Shown here one piece after another: positions 5,582-60,460 of a stretch of 64,000 bases of DNA (its first letter is position 1; each line of letters opens with the position of its first letter). The notes under the pieces were generated by a model. It saw only the letters and a list, made by a program, of their open reading frames with translations, was not told where the DNA came from and ran no database searches. The stretch comes from an uncultured Candidatus Saccharibacteria bacterium. GTDB lineage: Bacteria > Patescibacteriota > Saccharimonadia > Saccharimonadales > UBA10212. The position numbers and the translations under genes are program-made. Location: contig CAZETJ010000002.1 of NCBI GenBank assembly GCA_964514575.1, forward strand, positions 1,391 to 65,390, written 5' to 3'.

Positions 5582-6268
5582 TCAAACGGTATGACGTGTC
5601 TCTTTGGTTGGAGAATTATCTAAAGATTGCCACAAGTACCAGCAGGCAACCGATTCGTAGGGATGCCACTTATTTTTATTAGCGATGGTGATGATCTGTT
5701 CAGGAGTCGGTAGCTTGCTTGTCCCGTTAGAAATTCCTTGACTAGTTAAGGAATTTTTTATGGGATAAAGTTTCTGGATGGCTTTGCGGATACCAAGATC
5801 GCCAACCGGCAAAACATCCAGCCGGCCGAGGCCGAACATCATAAACATGTGCGCGCTCCACTCGCCGATACCTTTGACGGCTGTCAATTGTTCTATTAAC
5901 TGGTCGTTAGGCATGGTGCTGATATGATCTAGGTCGAGTCGGCCGTCAATAATGTGCTGCGCCAAATCTTTCATGTAGCCGACTTTCGGCCAACTACAGC
6001 CGGCGTCGCGCAGTTTCTGACCGTCAATTCTGAGCAGCTGCTCAGGCGTGGGCATCTTGTCGTCAAACAGCGCCAAGACCCGGCGCCAAATGGTGCCGCC
6101 GGCTTTAGCCGACAACTGCTGGCCAACGATGGAACCGACCAGCTCGCCATAATAATCTTTGTGCGGTTTCAGGCGGCACGGTCCGCTGGATTTTATTACC
6201 GGCGCTAATTTTTTATCAACCTTAACTAAGTAAACTTCGGCGGCTCGCAGTTTTTGGGCAAATGTCAT
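5582..6268 (-). CDS. HhH-GPD DNA glycosylase (AlkA / 3-methyladenine glycosylase II-like)
   Basis: LTAVKGIGEWSAHMFMMFGLGRLDVLPVGDLGIRKA is the helix-hairpin-helix plus catalytic Asp region. Start trimmed to MTFAQKL (6268). Confidence 0.8.
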   Translation of the reverse strand: MTFAQKLRAAEVYLVKVDKKLAPVIKSSGPCRLKPHKDYYGELVGSIVGQQLSAKAGGTIWRRVLALFDDKMPTPEQLLRIDGQKLRDAGCSWPKVGYMKDLAQHIIDGRLDLDHISTMPNDQLIEQLTAVKGIGEWSAHMFMMFGLGRLDVLPVGDLGIRKAIQKLYPIKNSLTSQGISNGTSKLPTPEQIITIANKNKWHPYESVACWYLWQSLDNSPTKETRHTV

Positions 6269-10460: not shown

Positions 10461-10658
10461 ATGGCTTATAAGCACACTAACAGTAAAGGTGTTACCTATT
10501 ACCTAAACGCCAAGGCAGTTACGCTGCGCGGCGGCAAGACACAAACGATTTACTACTTTTCTAAGGACGAGCGAGCCGACACTGGCGTAGATTTGCCAGA
10601 CGACCGCGTTGTCAACGAAAATCCGCGCAACGGTTTCTTGACCCTCAAGCGCAAGTAA
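10461..10658 (+). CDS. Small basic hypothetical protein, 65 aa
   Basis: GGAGAGAGGG SD, followed by a terminator. Confidence 0.55.
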   Translation: MAYKHTNSKGVTYYLNAKAVTLRGGKTQTIYYFSKDERADTGVDLPDDRVVNENPRNGFLTLKRK

Positions 10659-16176: not shown

Positions 16177-17958
16177 ATGACTCAGGACCATATTCGGAAT
16201 TTTTGCATAATTGCTCATATTGACCACGGCAAGAGTACGCTGGCCGATCGTTTGCTGGAATTGACTGGTACGGTCGAGAAAAGGCAAATGCACGAACAGT
16301 TGCTCGACAAAATGGAGCTTGAACGCGAGCGTGGCATAACCATCAAGCTGGCGCCAGTACGTATGAAATATAAGGACGTTGAACTTAACTTGATAGACAC
16401 GCCAGGCCATGTGGACTTTAGTTACGAAGTTAGCCGTTCGCTTGAGGCCGTCGAGGGAGCGATTTTGGTAGTCGACGCCACGCAGGGTATCCAAGCCCAG
16501 ACGCTAGCCAATGTTTACTTAGCTCTAGCTGCTGATTTAAAAATAATCCCAGTCCTCAACAAGATTGACTTGCCAGCTGCCGACGTCGATAAGGTCAGTG
16601 CCGAAGTTGTCGGGCTACTGGGCTGTAAGCCCGAAGAAATTTTGCATGTAAGCGCTAAGACCGGACAGGGGGTAGAAGAACTGCTGGAACGGCTTGTTCG
16701 AGAGGTTCCGCCACCCAGCGGCAGCGCCGAAGACCCAACTCGGGCCCTGATCTTCGATAGCTACTATGATGATTACCGCGGAGTAATTTTGTATATCCGG
16801 CTGGTTGACGGGCAGATCAACAAAGACTCGCATATCAAAATGTTTGGCACCAAGGCCGAGGGCTTAGCGCTAGAAGTCGGCTATTTGAATCCCGACATGA
16901 AATCCTCTGGCAAGTTAACAGCGGGAGAAATCGGCTACATTGTGACCAACCTTAAGACTACTCGATCGGGCCGGGTTGGCGATACCGTGACACTAACCGA
17001 CCGGCCATCTGAGACAGCTCTGCCGGGTTATCGCGATATCACGCCGTTTGTTTATGCCGGGTTTTTCCCTGATAGCAACGAAAATTACCAACTTTTAAAG
17101 GACGCTGTCGAAAAATTATCGCTTAGCGACTCGGCGCTTCAGTTTGCGCCGGAGAACTCGCCAGTTTTAGGTTTCGGAATACGCATTGGTTTCTTGGGCT
17201 TGCTCCATATGGACATAGTCCGCGAACGCCTGGAGCGCGAGTATAACCTAGAGCTGATCATTACTAACCCCTCGACCGACTACCAAGTGACTACTACAAA
17301 CGGACAAAAGCTAGACATAAAGTCAGCGGCAGAACTGCCGGATGCTAGTGAAGTCGTAGAAATTCGCGAGCCTTGGGTTAAGGGTGAGATTGTCGCGCCC
17401 AGCGAGTATGTCGGCGTGGTATTGCAGTTGATTGTCACGGCCCGTGGCGCCCATAAACACATCGGTTACGTCGAAGGCGGCTTGGCGGTGATTGATTTTG
17501 AGGCGCCATTAGCCAACCTGCTGACAGATTTTTACGACCAGCTTAAAAGCGTTACGTCCGGCTACGGATCGTTTAACTACGAGCTGGAAGACTATAGACC
17601 CGAAGATTTGGTCAGGTTAGATTTTTATATAGCCGGCGACCGAGTTGATGCTCTGTCCGTGGTGACGCACCGTTCGGAGGCCGAGCGGTTAGGCCGTCAA
17701 ACCGTCGAGAAATTGAAAGACGTCATACCGCGCCAGAACTTCAAAGTTAGCTTGCAAGCCGGCATTGGCGGTAAGTTTATTGCCCGCGAAGATATCTCGG
17801 CCTATCGCAAAGATGTAACCTCCGGTCTTTACGGCGGCGATGTGTCCCGCAAAAAGAAGGTGCTTGCCAAGCAGAAAAAGGGTAAAGAGCGGCTGAAGCG
17901 CTTCGGCCGTGTCGATATGCCTGCCGAGGCCTTTGCTGTTATGCTAAAACGAGATTGA
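16177..17958 (+). CDS. lepA: Elongation factor 4 (LepA)
   Basis: IRNFCIIAHIDHGKSTLADR, DTPGHVDF, NKIDL and the LepA C-terminal domain. Start trimmed to the ATG at 16177. Confidence 0.95.
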   Translation: MTQDHIRNFCIIAHIDHGKSTLADRLLELTGTVEKRQMHEQLLDKMELERERGITIKLAPVRMKYKDVELNLIDTPGHVDFSYEVSRSLEAVEGAILVVDATQGIQAQTLANVYLALAADLKIIPVLNKIDLPAADVDKVSAEVVGLLGCKPEEILHVSAKTGQGVEELLERLVREVPPPSGSAEDPTRALIFDSYYDDYRGVILYIRLVDGQINKDSHIKMFGTKAEGLALEVGYLNPDMKSSGKLTAGEIGYIVTNLKTTRSGRVGDTVTLTDRPSETALPGYRDITPFVYAGFFPDSNENYQLLKDAVEKLSLSDSALQFAPENSPVLGFGIRIGFLGLLHMDIVRERLEREYNLELIITNPSTDYQVTTTNGQKLDIKSAAELPDASEVVEIREPWVKGEIVAPSEYVGVVLQLIVTARGAHKHIGYVEGGLAVIDFEAPLANLLTDFYDQLKSVTSGYGSFNYELEDYRPEDLVRLDFYIAGDRVDALSVVTHRSEAERLGRQTVEKLKDVIPRQNFKVSLQAGIGGKFIAREDISAYRKDVTSGLYGGDVSRKKKVLAKQKKGKERLKRFGRVDMPAEAFAVMLKRD

Positions 17959-17959
17959 T

Positions 17960-18652
17960 ATGGACGCAGAGACAGTTGAACTAGTTGAAAAGTATAAGCC
18001 CAACCTTGATGTGCTCCGGGCAATGGGGCGGATTGAGCTTTTGGCGACGGTCGGGCCAACGGCCTCTGGCAAGACCACGCTTATGAACCGACTAGTGGCT
18101 AGCGACCCAAACTTCGCGATGGTTATAGACGAAACTACCCGCGCCGCCCGGCAAGGCGAAACTAACGGTGTTGATTTCTTGTTTCGCAGCCGCGAGGAGG
18201 TTCTGACCGAGATGGGTGACGGAGAACTTGTTCAGGTTGCGCTCGGTCCAAACGGCGACTTTTACTGCACCAGGGCAGATAGCTATCCAGAAAAAGGAGT
18301 CGGCCTATTGGCGCTAGTTCCGGCAGCCGTGCGGGGATTTCGACGCCTGCCAATTAAAAAATTCCACACAGCTTTTATTGTTCCAGCGAGCTACGAGCTA
18401 TGGCAGTCATGGCTTAAAAAACAAGCCGAAGCCAGCGGCTGGGATGAAGCCAAACTAGCTGGACGTCTGGCGGAGGCCGAGCAATCTTATAAGTTCGCTC
18501 TAGCTGACGAGCAGATGAGATTCGTTCTAAACGACGATGTCGGTAAAGCCGCCGAGCGTTTACGGCAAGTCGGGCTAGGCCAGACGCCAGACGATGAAGC
18601 AGAGGCTCGTCAAACAGCCGAAGAAAATTACCAGAAGTTGTTAGAGAGGTAG
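17960..18652 (+). CDS. Guanylate kinase-like P-loop protein (paralog 1, intact Walker A)
   Basis: GPTASGKTT, ETTRAARQGETNGVDFLFRSREEV, VLNDDVGKAAERL. Confidence 0.7.
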   Translation: MDAETVELVEKYKPNLDVLRAMGRIELLATVGPTASGKTTLMNRLVASDPNFAMVIDETTRAARQGETNGVDFLFRSREEVLTEMGDGELVQVALGPNGDFYCTRADSYPEKGVGLLALVPAAVRGFRRLPIKKFHTAFIVPASYELWQSWLKKQAEASGWDEAKLAGRLAEAEQSYKFALADEQMRFVLNDDVGKAAERLRQVGLGQTPDDEAEARQTAEENYQKLLER

Positions 18653-31044: not shown

Positions 31045-31163
31045 AACCCAATTTTGCAAATCGGGGGTCTAGTAACCGTTTACAAAATTGAGAGGAGCGA
31101 CATAGCGCTAAGCCGAAGCTTTTACGAAACAGTAAAACGAGGAAAGCGCGTAAGTCGCGACGA
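31045..31163 (+). ncRNA. Structured tRNA 5' leader, copy A
   Basis: P0 31052-60/31079-87; box GAGAGGAG 31090-97; P1 GCGAC 31097-101 / GTCGC 31154-58; TAAGCCGAAGC; P2 31120-25/31132-37; GACGA 31159-63. Confidence 0.6.
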
Positions 31164-37617: not shown

Positions 37618-37663
37618 ATACTAGCCAGCTAGTGGTCTTTCCATCTGTTATACTGACATCTAA

Positions 37664-37788: not shown

Positions 37789-37963
37789 TTTCAGCTTCCA
37801 CACGTCCTTACGCTTAACAAAACTGGAAGAATCTGCAAGCAGGATCTTCCAGTTTTGTGCAGAACCAGTAGGATGTATCGTTGCTGCTTTTCCATCCGGC
37901 TTATCCTCAAGCCGGATAGGCAGGGAGTTAGGACCACCTGCGGTATCCAGGTGAGGCGCAAGG

Positions 37964-37969
37964 TATAAT
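37964..37969 (+). promoter_or_regulatory. -10 TATAAT, 7 nt before the ATG at 37977 (leaderless-type)
   Basis: TATAAT-tattctt-ATG with no SD. Confidence 0.45.
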
Positions 37970-37976
37970 TATTCTT

Positions 37977-38411
37977 ATGAGGCTGCAGCCGATAAAAATC
38001 AAAAAACACTTTACGACCAGCAATGTGGCGCTTTATATCTTCGCGCTAATCGTGCTGGCTATAACCTGGAGTGGTGTAAAAACCATCCAAAGCAACTATG
38101 AGCTGCAAAAACAGGTATCTGTTCTAAAGCAACAAAATGACGTGACGAGCCTACAGAACCAAACTATCCAGCTCAAAAATCAATATTACGCCACCGACCA
38201 ATACTTGGATTTAGCGGCTCGCCAAGATCTTGGACTGGCAGCACCCGGCGAACAAGTTCTGTTGATCTCTAAAGCTACCGCACTCAAGTATGTTAATACT
38301 TCGATTGCTTCCCAAGTTCAAATTTCAAAAAGTGACACTCGACCGCAATTTATAAAAAATATGGAAGCTTGGCGAGACTTTTTGCTTGGACGAAACGTCA
38401 GTGGCAATTGA
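37977..38411 (+). CDS. Septum formation initiator (FtsB/DivIC-like)
   Basis: N-terminal TM followed by a coiled coil (YELQKQVSVLKQQNDVTSLQNQTIQLKNQ) and YLDLAARQDLGL. Confidence 0.7.
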   Translation: MRLQPIKIKKHFTTSNVALYIFALIVLAITWSGVKTIQSNYELQKQVSVLKQQNDVTSLQNQTIQLKNQYYATDQYLDLAARQDLGLAAPGEQVLLISKATALKYVNTSIASQVQISKSDTRPQFIKNMEAWRDFLLGRNVSGN

Positions 38412-38459
38412 CCAACACCTTAAAACGGGTTAGAATACGAAGCTAGTGCCCTTTGGGGC

Positions 38460-38571
38460 CCCCGCAAAATTTATTTTGTGGGGAGAGGAGAAGCAGCGAT
38501 AAGCTGAAGGAGCGAACAACTGAGACAAGGGTTGGTCGCCTCCGCAAGCTGACAGCTTGCTTCGACGACGA
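38460..38571 (+). ncRNA. Structured tRNA 5' leader, copy E
   Basis: P0 CCCCGCAAAA 38460-69 / TTTTGTGGGG 38474-83; GAGAGGAG 38483-90; P1 GAAGCA 38490-95 / TGCTTC 38558-63; GACGA 38567-71. A TAGAAT -10 lies at 38431-36. Confidence 0.6.
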
Positions 38572-38646
38572 CGCGGGGTGGAGCAGTAGTAGCTCGCATG
38601 GCTCATAACCATGAGGTCGCAGGTGCAAATCCTGCCCCCGCTACCA
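38572..38646 (+). tRNA. Initiator tRNA-fMet (CAU)
   Basis: CGCGGGGTGGAGCAG start with an unpaired 1:72 position (C:U). CCA encoded. Confidence 0.88.
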
Positions 38647-38653
38647 CGAAAAG

Positions 38654-38679
38654 CGCCCGACGCAAGGTCGGGTGTTTTT
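38654..38679 (+). terminator. Rho-independent terminator CGCCCGAC gcaag GTCGGGTG TTTTT
   Basis: 8-bp stem with one G:U pair, plus a T5 run. Confidence 0.75.
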
Positions 38680-38797
38680 CGTGGAGGGGCAGTCTGCACC
38701 TAACCGACAGAGAATTTTAAAATCTTAGTGATTAAGTCAGCGATAAATTCACAGACGCTTTTCTAGCGTGAACTCAGAGTGCCCCCGGCACTCTTCG

Positions 38798-38822
38798 GGT
38801 GCAAATCCTGCCCCCGCTACCA
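38798..38822 (+). repeat. 25-nt exact direct repeat of the tRNA-fMet 3' end (GGTGCAAATCCTGCCCCCGCTACCA)
   Basis: Identical to 38622-38646. Confidence 0.9.
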
Positions 38823-40071: not shown

Positions 40072-40326
40072 TTAGCGATTTTCTTTAGGACGAGCCACGT
40101 CGACCGAGATGGTCCGGCCGCCAAGATCGGCGCCGTTCATGGCTGCTTGGGCAGCTTTGCCTTCTTCTTCGTTTTCGAACTCAACGAAGCCGAAGCCTTT
40201 GCTGCGGCCACTTTCGCGGTCACGGACAACAGTAGCGCTGGCTACAGTACCATGAGCGGCAAAAGCGTCACGAAGCTCTTCATCGGTGGTTGCGAAAGGC
40301 AATCCGCCTACAAATAGTTTGTACAT
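40072..40326 (-). CDS. RRM-type RNA-binding protein, 84 aa
   Basis: RNP2 KLFVGGL and RNP1 KGFGFVEF. Confidence 0.9.
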   Translation of the reverse strand: MYKLFVGGLPFATTDEELRDAFAAHGTVASATVVRDRESGRSKGFGFVEFENEEEGKAAQAAMNGADLGGRTISVDVARPKENR

Positions 40327-40663: not shown

Positions 40664-40695
40664 AATAACAGATGCTATACTACATCTGTTATTTT
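40664..40695 (+). terminator. Hairpin AATAACAGATG ctatacta CATCTGTTATT + TT
   Basis: 11-bp stem, 9 nt upstream of tRNA-Met. Confidence 0.5.
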
Positions 40696-40704
40696 AGTTT
40701 GCGA

Positions 40705-56881: not shown

Positions 56882-57298
56882 ATGATCAAGGTTGTCCTAT
56901 TTGATTATGGTGGAGTGTTGTCGCGGCTGTTGGTGCCGCAATACAAAGTCCGGCGGCTGGCCAAAGCCCTGCACAACCAGGGCATCAGCGTGGCGGTTCT
57001 GTCCAACATGAACTCACTTGGCGGCTGGGGTATCCGAATGCTGGGTCTGTACCACGGATTCGCGCCAGTGATTCTGTCCTATCAGGAGGGCGTCCGCAAG
57101 CCCGACCCGCGCATCTACCAAATAGCGATTAAAAAACTTGGGGTTAAGCCCAACGAAATTCTGTTCGTAGATAATTTGGTCGAAAATGTAAGGGCGGCGC
57201 GGGCAGGAGGGATACAAACGCTGCACGCTGATGGCACCAAAAGACTAATCTCTCGGCTCAAGACAATCTTAGCTAAAGAAAACAACCTAGTGCTATAA
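56882..57298 (+). CDS. HAD-superfamily hydrolase (short)
   Basis: VVLFDYGGVL ... KPDPRIYQ ... LFVDN. Confidence 0.7.
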   Translation: MIKVVLFDYGGVLSRLLVPQYKVRRLAKALHNQGISVAVLSNMNSLGGWGIRMLGLYHGFAPVILSYQEGVRKPDPRIYQIAIKKLGVKPNEILFVDNLVENVRAARAGGIQTLHADGTKRLISRLKTILAKENNLVL

Positions 57299-57316
57299 TT
57301 ACCCCTGTTCTGGCAA

Positions 57317-58340: not shown

Positions 58341-58456
58341 AAACCAATTTTGCAAGCTAGGCACCGATGCTTGTAAAATTGAGAGGAGTAACTTAGCACT
58401 AAGCCGAAGCTTTTGATTCACTAACCAAAACGAGGCAAATGCGCAAGTTATGACGA
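58341..58456 (+). ncRNA. Structured tRNA 5' leader, copy B
   Basis: P0 58348-57/58369-78; GAGAGGAG 58381-88; P1 TAACTT 58389-94 / AAGTTA 58445-50; TAAGCCGAAGC 58400-10; P2 58411-30; GACGA 58452-56. Confidence 0.65.
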
Positions 58457-59810: not shown

Positions 59811-59925
59811 TCGTCGGAACTTGCGGTTTTGTCTCGTTTTGCCAAATTGGCAAAAGCTTCGACCTGAACCTATGTTCCTCCTCTCAATTTTACAAGCAGC
59901 AATGCTTGGCTTGCAAAATTGGTTT
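59811..59925 (-). ncRNA. Structured tRNA 5' leader, copy C
   Basis: GAGAGGAG within 59878-88; P1 GGAAC (59878-74) / GTTCC (59820-16); P2 palindrome 59837-55; GACGA 59815-11. Confidence 0.65.
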
Positions 59926-59964
59926 AGACCAAAGACGCCGTAATTGTATCACCAACAGAGGTGA

Positions 59965-60412: not shown

Positions 60413-60460
60413 TCGTCAAAGCACGGCTTAAGCCTATACCGCTCCTCTTAATTCTACAAG
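60413..60460 (-). ncRNA. Minimal tRNA 5' leader, copy D
   Basis: TTGTAGAATTAAGAGGAGCGGTATAGGCTTAAGCCGTGCTTTGACGA followed directly by the tRNA. Confidence 0.5.

What the first reader, a model, noticed from the sequence alone, without database searches (positions are those of the whole stretch)
38414..38646. Leader copy E (initiator tRNA): fully compensated P0 and mutually exclusive pairings
In this copy the four outer P0 base pairs are CCCC/GGGG instead of TTTT/AAAA. The GCAA...TTGT core and its G:U pair are kept. This rules out reading P0 merely as a TTGCAA-N17-TAAAAT promoter, because copy E has no -10 box there. Its -10 box is TAGAAT at 38431-36.

The central part carries two copies of AAGCTG (38501-06 and 38545-50). 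Both can pair with CAGCTT (38553-58). One pairing spans the GGAGCGA...TCGCCTCC hairpin, and the other forms a local hairpin.

That arrangement is what a conformational switch would look like. The switch idea is inference.
Basis: partly seen in the sequence, partly recalled or inferred. Interest (0 to 1): 0.65.

Follow-up and report, generated by a model that had tools for sequence, protein, structure and literature searches.

The report
Structured tRNA leader, not a switch
The 130 bases in front of this initiator tRNA gene are one copy of an apparently undescribed, strongly folded leader RNA that many Saccharibacteria carry on some tRNA genes, but the repeated AAGCTG words are the two strands of one ordinary helix, not an RNA switch.

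Summary
The sequence features are real: the CCCCGCAAAA/TTTTGTGGGG hairpin, the TTGACC-17-TAGAAT promoter, two AAGCTG copies (the second is at 38546-51, not 38545-50) and CAGCTT.

The window is a Saccharimonadales (CPR) chromosome. Copy E belongs to a tRNA-linked 5' leader family with the layout: P0 hairpin, AGAGGA, closing helix P1 around a rod-like core, GACGA, tRNA +1. P0 and P1 covary across 30 leaders (95.8% paired, 14 of 15 pairs with double changes, 24 G·U against 1 A·C). So P0 is an RNA hairpin, not just a promoter.

The switch is not supported. In E and four homologues of the same core type, the two AAGCTG copies pair with each other (p≥0.97). This helix corresponds to P3 of the commoner core type. 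The true orthologue L163, and L017, lack the duplicated hexamer but keep the fold.

The leader is dispensable and patchy. Close relatives keep the same promoter and tRNA without it.

It has no Rfam match and no paper in the held library describes it. Its function is inferred: a spacer removed by RNase P, with a 5' hairpin and a very strong Shine-Dalgarno-like junction at the cleavage site.

The parts
38408..38436 (+). Sigma-70-type promoter TTGACC-N17-TAGAAT of the fMet transcription unit. The predicted start is near 38443.
   Evidence: 10 of 12 matches. The same promoter sits in front of leaderless orthologues L143/L144 and the leader-bearing orthologue L163.
38448..38459 (+). Small 5' hairpin GCCC-UUUG-GGGC. 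GGGGC is part of the 29-mer GC-clamped palindromic module at 38455-83.
   Evidence: MFE; recurrence of the module.
38460..38483 (+). P0 hairpin, GC-clamped variant: CCCCGCAAAA / UUUA / UUUUGUGGGG.
   Evidence: Pair probabilities are 0.57-1.0. The P0 position covaries across 30 leaders. L156 and L163 carry the same variant.
38484..38489 (+). Purine junction AGAGGA. With its flanking G's it reads GAGAGGAG (38483-90), a Shine-Dalgarno-like sequence.
   Evidence: It is conserved in all window copies and in loci fetched independently of the search pattern. Its duplex with a generic 16S 3' tail is -12 to -16.6 kcal/mol. No start codon follows.
38490..38497 (+). P1 5' strand: GAAGCA plus GC.
   Evidence: P1 covaries across the family.
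38501..38506 (+). First AAGCTG. Its AGCU (38502-05) is the 5' strand of helix P3.
   Evidence: Pair probabilities are 0.97-1.0 with 38547-50.
38509..38543 (+). P4 hairpin GGAGCGA...UCG(C)CUCC. This is the type III apical domain.
   Evidence: L163 has compensating changes: GGGGAGA / UCUCUCC.
38546..38551 (+). Second AAGCTG. Its AGCU (38547-50) is the 3' strand of P3.
   Evidence: L017 has an A:U to G:C double change in this helix.
38553..38563 (+). CAGCTT plus GCTTC. GC at 38555-56 and UGCUUC at 38558-63 form the 3' strand of P1 and its extension.
38564..38571 (+). GAC-GACGA. The family's 3' motif GACGA abuts tRNA +1, the inferred RNase P site. It is predicted to zip to GAGGA through tandem G·A pairs and one G-C pair.
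   Evidence: In the tRNA-His copy it ends before G-1.
38572..38646 (+). Initiator tRNA-Met (CAU) with encoded CCA.
38647..38682 (+). 16-bp terminator-type hairpin with a U run. It ends the monocistronic unit.
31049..31163 (+). Family copy A, on tRNA-Lys-UUU. It has a type I core.
   Evidence: (87.7 bits).
58345..58456 (+). Family copy on tRNA-Pro-UGG. It has a type I core.
   Evidence: (81.2 bits).
59811..59921 (-). Family copy on tRNA-His. It has a type I core and ends before G-1.
   Evidence: (89.7 bits).
60413..60455 (-). Truncated family copy on the tRNA-Gly-UCC/Arg-UCU pair.
   Evidence: (15.9 bits).

Best explanation
Copy E is a member, with a 'type III' core, of a modular family of structured 5' leaders (5' external transcribed spacers) on tRNA genes of Saccharibacteria.

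What I propose happens:
- It is transcribed from the promoter at 38408-36.
- It folds into one static, nested structure: a small hairpin, then the P0 hairpin, then the single-stranded purine junction AGAGGA, then a rod closed by P1.
- In that rod, the two AAGCTG words are the two strands of helix P3, CAGCTT-GCTTC is the 3' strand of P1, and GGAGCGA/UCGCCUCC is the apical P4.
- The invariant GACGA lies directly against tRNA +1. There RNase P removes the whole leader (inferred).

The function is inferred:
- The 5' hairpin and the very strong Shine-Dalgarno-like junction would act as a 5' stabiliser and recognition platform of the kind used by bacteria with RNase Y and RNase J.
- The GAGGA/GACGA purine zipper would fix the geometry of the cleavage site and hide the 3' end of the released leader.
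- The module is accessory. It is inherited vertically, often lost, and its parts (P0 type, core type) are exchanged between tRNA genes.
For: Organism:
- The window encodes LepA, DnaK, FtsH, MurJ, RNase Y and ComEC.
- Homologues are named Candidatus Saccharimonadales or Saccharibacteria.

Family:
- There are five copies in the window, each ending at a tRNA.
- 33 distinct leaders were found in the held loci, on fMet, Met, Lys, His, Pro, Gly, Val and Leu genes.
- Every model hit with E<0.5 in 381 kb abuts a tRNA or a tRNA fragment.

Structure:
- P0 plus P1 are 95.8% paired and 14 of 15 pairs show double changes. Slid controls give 32-42%.
- For the type I core, RNAalifold gives the same structure as my manual one: 13 of 20 pairs are compensatory and 95.4% are paired.
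- G·U against A·C is 24 to 1.

Single fold of E.

Cleavage-site logic: GACGA precedes G-1 in tRNA-His. CPR genomes do have RNase P RNA (PMC8172020).

Shine-Dalgarno likeness:
- The junction duplex is -12 to -16.6 kcal/mol. Fewer than 0.4% of window 10-mers reach -10, and dnaK's real SD gives -12.5.
- No conserved start codon follows.
- The G-C pair flanked by tandem GA loops is in every MFE.

Accessory nature:
- The same promoters are present but the leader is absent in L143-145, L146-150 and L155 (fMet), in L163 (Lys) and in L157-160 (Pro, His, Gly).
- Orthologues are more similar than paralogues in the window (78-81% against 68-72%).
Against: - No transcript data exist. The start site, the RNase P cleavage and the accumulation of the leader are all inferred.
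- The invariance of AGAGGAG and GACGA in L001-L022 is circular, because the search pattern required both. Only the window copies and the loci fetched through proteins are independent, and there the motifs vary slightly: AAGAGGC in L163, TAGAGGAG in L156, GACGT in L080 and L161.
- P0 arms in alignment A2 were picked by a script that maximises pairing.
- The 16S 3' tail used for the SD calculation is a generic bacterial one, not this organism's.
- A helix at position -1 is normally unfavourable for bacterial RNase P.
- A stabiliser makes little obvious sense for an RNA that is cut off.
- Easy loss in close relatives argues against an important function.
Confidence: 0.55

Rival explanations
1. 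CAGCTT alternates between the first AAGCTG (a long-range pairing) and the second (a local hairpin), changing what the leader does.
For: All three words exist, and both pairings are possible on paper. In four type III leaders both pairings stay 95-96% pairable.
Against: - Pairing A has probability about 0 and pairing B ≤0.011. They cost +8.6-12 and +3.9-7.2 kcal/mol in five homologues.
- During transcription, copy 2 meets copy 1 before CAGCTT exists.
- L017 and the orthologue L163 lack the duplicated hexamer.
- Other core types have no such repeat.
Confidence: 0.04
2. This is a gate at the cleavage site. The junction GAGAGGAG is either zipped to GACGA, which hides positions -1 to -5 from RNase P, or captured by the 16S rRNA 3' end, a 30S subunit or a purine-binding protein. 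tRNA maturation would then be coupled to ribosome availability.
For: - The junction is as complementary to the anti-SD as the best real SD, yet no ORF follows it.
- The same strand is predicted to pair with GACGA.
- Extra SD-like words occur in P0 loops (GAGAGGAUU in L001, L002, L008, L020) and in type III P4 (AAGGAGCGA).
Against: - This is pure inference. The junction and GACGA do not vary, so there is no covariation to test.
- L163 has a weakened motif (AAGAGGC).
- Relatives do without the leader.
Confidence: 0.12
3. This is a selfish or neutral modular repeat (MITE-like or gene-conversion driven). It persists in the harmless slot between promoter and tRNA because RNase P trims it off, and it has no host function.
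For: - Presence and absence differ between close relatives with intact promoters.
- There are tandem and truncated copies: L002, and L161 Gly.
- Modules are shuffled. The same P0 goes with different cores: L017 against L080 Val, and E against L156.
- The GC-clamped 29-mer occurs in both orientations in one genome, L157/L163.
- Paralogues are more alike than orthologues in L156.
Against: - Covariation is strand-specific with G·U tolerance. Orientation is fixed and the copy abuts the processing site exactly. Internal loops are conserved. All of these imply selection on the RNA.
- Lys and His leaders are inherited as orthologues.
- No transposase, target duplication or free-standing copy was seen.
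Confidence: 0.17
4. This is a cis-acting self-cleaving ribozyme that makes the tRNA 5' end without RNase P.
For: Conserved purines flank the junction. G-A...G-A next to a helix recalls the hammerhead core (seen in the sequence).
Against: - No ribozyme family matched, even at E≤10.
- The topology does not fit a hammerhead: there is no stem III and no A14.
- The core between the conserved strands comes in at least four unrelated forms.
- About half of the tRNA genes lack the leader, so another 5' nuclease must exist.
Confidence: 0.03
5. P0 acts at the DNA level, as the promoter (TTGCAA-N17/18-TAAAAT) or as a palindromic operator.
For: Promoter-like hits lie inside P0 of the Pro and His copies (9 of 12 matches). 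Copy D keeps TAGAAT at that place.
Against: - E, L156, L022, L007 and L014 have no such hexamers there, and they have upstream promoters.
- In the Lys copy the spacing is about 24 nt.
- G·U against A·C is 24 to 1.
Confidence: 0.06

Closest known systems
5' stabilisers of Firmicutes transcripts (5'-terminal stem-loops and STAB-SD elements such as cryIIIA, which block RNase J1). Cited from my own knowledge.
   Same: A hairpin lies near the 5' end, followed by a strong Shine-Dalgarno-like sequence with no ORF. The organism encodes RNase Y.
   Different: Here the element precedes a tRNA and is cut off. It carries a long conserved rod and an invariant 3' motif. Stabilisation has not been tested.
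Functional external transcribed spacers of pre-tRNAs, such as the E. coli 3'ETS-leuZ sRNA sponge. The concept appears in papers listed; the details are from my own knowledge.
   Same: It is a by-product of tRNA processing with conserved sequence and possibly a role of its own.
   Different: It is on the 5' side, not the 3' side. It is highly structured rather than a single-stranded pairing site. It is repeated on many tRNA genes, and no partner is known.
T-box leaders
   Same: They are long, structured, tRNA-related leaders with purine-rich internal loops.
   Different: T-boxes precede aminoacyl-tRNA synthetase and amino-acid genes, bind tRNA in trans, and have a specifier loop and an antiterminator. 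None of these is present here, and there is no Rfam match.
rRNA-operon leaders (boxA/B/C antitermination, RNase III processing stems). Cited from my own knowledge.
   Same: They are conserved structured spacers of stable-RNA transcripts, removed during maturation.
   Different: Here there is no boxA-like sequence and no pairing between leader and trailer. The unit is a single short tRNA.
REP-like or MITE-like palindromic repeats
   Same: The GC-clamped hairpin that serves as E's P0 recurs in both orientations and as an insertion inside another hairpin.
   Different: The leader as a whole has a fixed orientation, covaries as RNA, and is never free-standing.
Tandem sheared G·A motifs and K-turn-like internal loops. 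Cited from my own knowledge.
   Same: The pairings 5'-GAGGA/5'-GACGA and 5'-GAA/5'-GA next to helices resemble these protein-binding motifs.
   Different: The loop next to P4 has G-C where a K-turn has A·G at position 2b·2n. No structure or binding protein has been shown.

Membership tests
Saccharibacterial tRNA 5'-leader family (defined here) | The 3' end, GACG(A), abuts the tRNA 5' processing site, on the same strand. | tested here: met
   E has GACGACGA at 38564-71, followed by the tRNA at 38572. The same holds in all 33 leaders.
Saccharibacterial tRNA 5'-leader family (defined here) | The purine junction AGAGGA lies between a 5' hairpin (P0) and the closing helix P1. | tested here: met
   Junction at 38484-89, P0 at 38460-83, P1 at 38490-95 with 38558-63.
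Saccharibacterial tRNA 5'-leader family (defined here) | The core is a nested rod (P1 to P4) that the family covariance model can detect. | tested here: met
   The type I model hits 38484-38568 at 23 bits, E=0.016. This is weak because the core is type III. The MFE architecture is the same.
Riboswitch-like conformational switch | Two mutually exclusive helices of comparable stability. | tested here: not met
   The alternatives cost +4.0 and +8.6 kcal/mol and have probability ≤0.011.
Riboswitch-like conformational switch | Both alternative pairings are conserved in homologues. | tested here: not met
   L017 and L163 lose the duplicated hexamer. The alternatives cost 6.5-12 kcal/mol there. Counts on four sequences alone are inconclusive.
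Sigma-70 promoter reading of P0 | -35 and -10 hexamers 16-18 nt apart inside P0. | tested here: not met
   E has none inside P0; its promoter is at 38408-36. The Pro and His copies do have a 9-of-12 match.
Known self-cleaving ribozymes and other Rfam families | A match to a curated covariance model. | tested here: not met
   Only tRNA matched at gathering score. Nothing relevant appeared at E≤10 or E≤5 over the leaders.
STAB-SD type 5' stabiliser | An SD-like sequence complementary to the 16S 3' end, with no start codon at SD spacing. | tested here: met
   Duplex energy is -12 to -16.6 kcal/mol with a generic anti-SD tail. 0 of 5 window copies and 10 of 33 leaders overall have any start codon 4-14 nt downstream. 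The organism's own 16S tail was not available.
STAB-SD type 5' stabiliser | It raises RNA half-life by blocking a 5' exonuclease. | not testable with these tools
   This needs half-life measurements in vivo or RNase J assays.
RNase P substrate leader | Cleavage by RNase P exactly 3' of GACGA. | not testable with these tools
   It is inferred from the position, including G-1 of tRNA-His, and from reports of RNase P RNA in CPR genomes. No rnpB was found in the window or the held loci.

The most novel reading that the evidence does not exclude
The leader is a regulatory gate on tRNA 5' maturation. Its invariant Shine-Dalgarno-mimic junction toggles between a purine zipper with GACGA, which masks the RNase P site, and capture by the 16S 3' end, a 30S subunit or a purine-binding protein such as the neighbouring RRM protein. 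The supply of selected tRNAs would then be tuned to ribosome availability in a reduced-genome epibiont.
Probability: 0.1. Interest if true: 0.85.

Novelty: new variant of a known kind. Interest (0 to 1): 0.55.

Why it matters
Bacterial pre-tRNA 5' leaders are normally short, unstructured and unconserved. Here a 110-130-nt leader with several covarying helices and two invariant purine motifs at the processing site sits on about half of the sampled tRNA genes. It is spread across Saccharibacteria, a lineage with few tools and odd RNA biology. It has no Rfam match and I found no description of it in the papers I could search.

It is a clean candidate for a new RNA family. It also offers a natural experiment: close relatives with and without it, behind the same promoter. 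That makes it possible to ask what a structured leader does for tRNA processing, stability or ribosome coupling.

For the finding as written, the lesson is cautionary. Repeated short palindromic words (AGCT) suggest switches on paper that energetics and homologues do not bear out.

Tried and rejected
- A viral-contig scan for type I leaders found nothing.
- Rfam found nothing for the leaders at gathering or lenient thresholds. It found only tRNAs, and no RNase P RNA, in 146 kb of related loci.
- Eight literature searches found no description (papers read). A ninth attempt failed on a syntax error.
- A small ORF after the SD-like motif is rejected. There is no conserved start codon or reading frame.
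- A T-box-like specifier is rejected. Codons matching the downstream tRNA appear in the P4 loops of the Lys and Pro copies but not in the His or fMet copies (read from the sequence).
- A hammerhead reading of AGAGGA...GACGA is rejected on topology.
- Leader-trailer pairing is rejected. The full unit folds into separate modules.
- An IS200/IS605-like target preference on the 5' flank is rejected. The flanks share no constant tetranucleotide.
- The CTCTGTT element is not enriched across the window.

Full report
**What is there**

The region 38408-38682 is one small transcription unit. It contains, in order:
- a sigma-70-type promoter, TTGACC-17-TAGAAT (38408-36);
- a 128-nt leader;
- the initiator tRNA-Met (38572-38646, with CCA encoded);
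- a 16-bp terminator-type hairpin.

- The second AAGCTG is at 38546-51, not 38545-50.
- The 'local hairpin' can be at most AAGCU/AGCUU with a 3-nt loop.
- E's P0 stem is 3 bp shorter at its base than in the other copies. It is not a position-for-position swap of four pairs.

**Organism and family**

The window encodes LepA, DnaK, FtsH, MurJ, MurA, RNase Y and ComEC. Its proteins are closest to Candidatus Saccharimonadales MAGs.

Five of the nine tRNA genes in the window carry a related leader:

| tRNA gene | Leader coordinates | Note |
|---|---|---|
| Lys-UUU | 31049-31163 | |
| fMet (copy E) | see parts list | |
| Pro-UGG | 58345-58456 | |
| His | 59921-59811, minus strand | |
| Gly-UCC/Arg-UCU pair | 60455-60413, minus strand | truncated version |

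The two other Met(CAU) genes and Pro-CGG have only a promoter and about 10 nt.

A scan of one genome per species, using AGAGGAG, a 60-90-nt gap, GACGA and the fMet 5' end, returned 22 loci. Nearly all are labelled Saccharibacteria. Loci fetched through neighbouring proteins (DivIC and RNase Y homologues) added copies that do not depend on that pattern.

In all I hold 33 distinct leaders, on fMet, Met, Lys, His, Pro, Gly, Val and Leu genes. There are 54 leaderless tRNA genes in the same loci (the sampling is biased towards fMet).

**Architecture and its support**

The common plan is: P0 hairpin, AGAGGA, P1 closing a rod-like core, GACGA, tRNA +1.

- On 30 leaders, the outer 10 pairs of P0 plus P1 are 95.8% paired. 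14 of 15 pairs show changes on both sides. No shuffle out of 500 reaches the observed values, and slid controls give 32-42%.
- G·U/U·G cells outnumber A·C/C·A cells 24 to 1. The helices therefore form in RNA of the tRNA strand, not as a DNA palindrome.
- The core comes in at least four forms.
- For the commonest form (type I, 12 sequences), RNAalifold returns exactly the structure I drew by hand: P1, P2, P3, a conserved GAA/GA loop, and P4. 13 of 20 pairs are compensatory and 95.4% are paired.
- A covariance model of type I finds all type I copies at 65-91 bits and the other types weakly. Every hit with E<0.5 in 381 kb ends at a tRNA or a tRNA fragment. None is free-standing.

Two caveats apply. 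The invariance of AGAGGAG and GACGA in L001-L022 was imposed by the search pattern. P0 arms were chosen by a script that maximises pairing. The independent copies show the same motifs with small variations: AAGAGGC, TAGAGGAG, GACGT.

**P0 and the promoter question**

- E has its own promoter upstream. L143/L144 (DivIC 80% identical) and L163 have the same promoter.
- In the Lys copy the two hexamers are about 24 nt apart, and a separate promoter-like site lies 33 nt upstream.
- Several species have P0 stems with no promoter-like words at all. An example is CACTGAAAAGT/ACTTTTCAGTG in L022.
- The Pro and His copies do contain a 9-of-12 promoter-like match inside P0. A dual use there cannot be excluded without mapping the transcription start.

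One nuance concerns E's P0. It is a GC-clamped hairpin (GGGGCCCCC-GCAAAA-loop-TTTTGTGGGG) that behaves as a module of its own.
- L156 and L163 use it as P0.
- L157, which is the same genome as L163, carries the exact reverse complement of the 29-mer before a leaderless tRNA-Gly.
- L080 has it inserted inside a different hairpin, and L008 has it about 1 kb from a tRNA.

**The proposed switch**

AGCT is a palindrome, so the two AAGCTG copies can pair with each other.
- That pairing (38502-05 with 38547-50) is the minimum-free-energy fold, with probability 0.97-1.0. This holds with or without the tRNA and terminator attached.
- CAGCTT-GCTTC then forms the 3' strand of P1 and its extension.
Forcing the local hairpin costs 4.0 kcal/mol. 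Their probabilities are about 0 and ≤0.011.
- The copy1-copy2 helix occupies the place of P3 in the type I core: TAA-GCC-GAAGC...CGA-GGC in type I against TAA-GCU-GAAG...GCA-AGC in E.
- Four more type III leaders give the same result: L017 fMet, L080 Gly-GCC, L102, and the true orthologue L163.
- L017 (AGGCCG/AAGCCG/TAGCTT) and L163 (AAGCAC/AAGCTT/TAGCTT) have lost the duplicated hexamer but keep the helix. L017 does so through an A:U to G:C double change, and L163 through a one-step register shift.
- Comparative counts on four sequences cannot by themselves exclude the alternatives.

**Evolutionary behaviour**

The leader is accessory.
- Orthologous genes in close relatives keep the promoter and the tRNA but lack the leader. 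This is so for fMet in L143-145, L146-150 and L155; for Lys in L163; and for Pro-UGG, His and Gly-UCC in L157-160, whose RNase Y is 90-92% identical.
- Where it is present, Lys and His leaders look orthologous: 78-81% identity against 68-72% between paralogues in the window. In L156, however, paralogues are more alike.
- Modules are exchanged. The same P0 goes with type III in L017 and type IV in L080 Val. The same GC-clamped P0 goes with type III in E and type I in L156.
- Decay products exist. L002 has a truncated type III leader followed by a complete one. L161 Gly keeps only the 3' half. Window copy D is truncated.

**How it probably works (inferred)**

GACGA always ends at the 5' processing site. 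In tRNA-His it stops before the encoded G-1. This fits removal by RNase P, which diverged CPR genomes still encode (PMC8172020).

The junction GAGAGGAG is complementary to a generic 16S 3' tail at -12 to -16.6 kcal/mol. That is as strong as or stronger than the best real Shine-Dalgarno sequence in the window (dnaK, -12.5). No start codon follows it.

Every MFE also pairs the G of GAGGA with the C of GACGA, between two tandem G·A loops. That would bury positions -1 to -5 and the 3' end of the released leader.

The resemblance to 5' stabilisers of bacteria that use RNase Y and RNase J (a terminal hairpin plus an SD-like element) is the best-fitting known mechanism. A gate on RNase P access, or a selfish repeat tolerated because RNase P trims it off, are live rivals.

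None of this can be decided without transcript mapping and biochemistry.

**Comparison with what is known**

No Rfam family matches at any threshold. The papers I could search contain no description of it. It is not a T-box, a known ribozyme, or an rRNA-type leader.

I file it as a new variant of a known kind: a structured external transcribed spacer of a stable-RNA gene. Copy E is an ordinary member of the family, not a special switching copy.

Noticed in passing
window 38798-38822: This is an exact 25-nt copy of the 3' end of the fMet tRNA (38622-38646), 150 nt downstream of the gene. It looks like the scar of an element that integrated into the tRNA gene.
   Followed up: no
window 38455-38483; L157 15217-15245; L163 about 10575-10603; L008 126-149; L080 2165-2189; L156 10551-10583: A GC-clamped palindromic hairpin (GGGGNCCCC-RCAAAA-loop-TTTTGYGGGG) recurs near tRNA genes in either orientation. 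It occurs twice in one genome (L157/L163) and once as an insertion inside another hairpin. It behaves like a small REP-like repeat.
   Followed up: partly
window 40672-40700, 57294-57309, 59954-59960, 37645-37655; many loci: CTCTGTT / AACAGATG words flank the -10 box of many Saccharibacteria tRNA promoters. An example is ACAGATG-CTATACTA-CATCTGT before tRNA 40705. This may be an operator or a promoter element. It is not enriched across the window.
   Followed up: partly
L007 about 6150-6250; L014 3234-3335; L156 13187-13231: In these loci a leader is followed by a truncated 5' fragment of a tRNA, and a complete tRNA lies 20-100 nt further on. In L007 and L014 the fragment runs into a long perfect hairpin (CGCTCATAACC...GGTTATGAGCG).
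   Followed up: no
L002 4310-4526: Two leaders lie in tandem before one fMet gene. The upstream one (type III) has lost its 3' part. The downstream one (a different P0 with a type I core) is complete.
   Followed up: partly
L002 about 2190-2243; L017 about 1465-1500; L080 2133-2260; L161 about 17920-18060: A different conserved leader or spacer hairpin, UUGAAGGA(A/C)AACC...UCCUUCAA, precedes tRNA(CAU) genes that begin GGCAGGG. It also occurs in other tRNA spacers. It may be a second family of structured tRNA leaders.
   Followed up: no
window 40072-40326 (-): An 84-aa RRM_1 RNA-binding protein gene lies between the fMet and the next tRNA(CAU) gene. The same small gene keeps this neighbourhood in relatives (L146, L156, L163). 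It is a candidate binder of the purine-rich junction, but nothing links them yet.
   Followed up: partly
window 37960-37979 and other gene starts: Several genes have a TATAAT-like box 7-10 nt before the ATG and no Shine-Dalgarno sequence. An example is ggTATAATtattcttATG at 37977. This suggests leaderless mRNAs, while a few genes such as dnaK and RNase Y have strong SDs.
   Followed up: no
L157 999-2368: A bAvd-like gene and a reverse transcriptase (RVT_1) sit side by side in the close relative. This is the layout of a diversity-generating retroelement.
   Followed up: no
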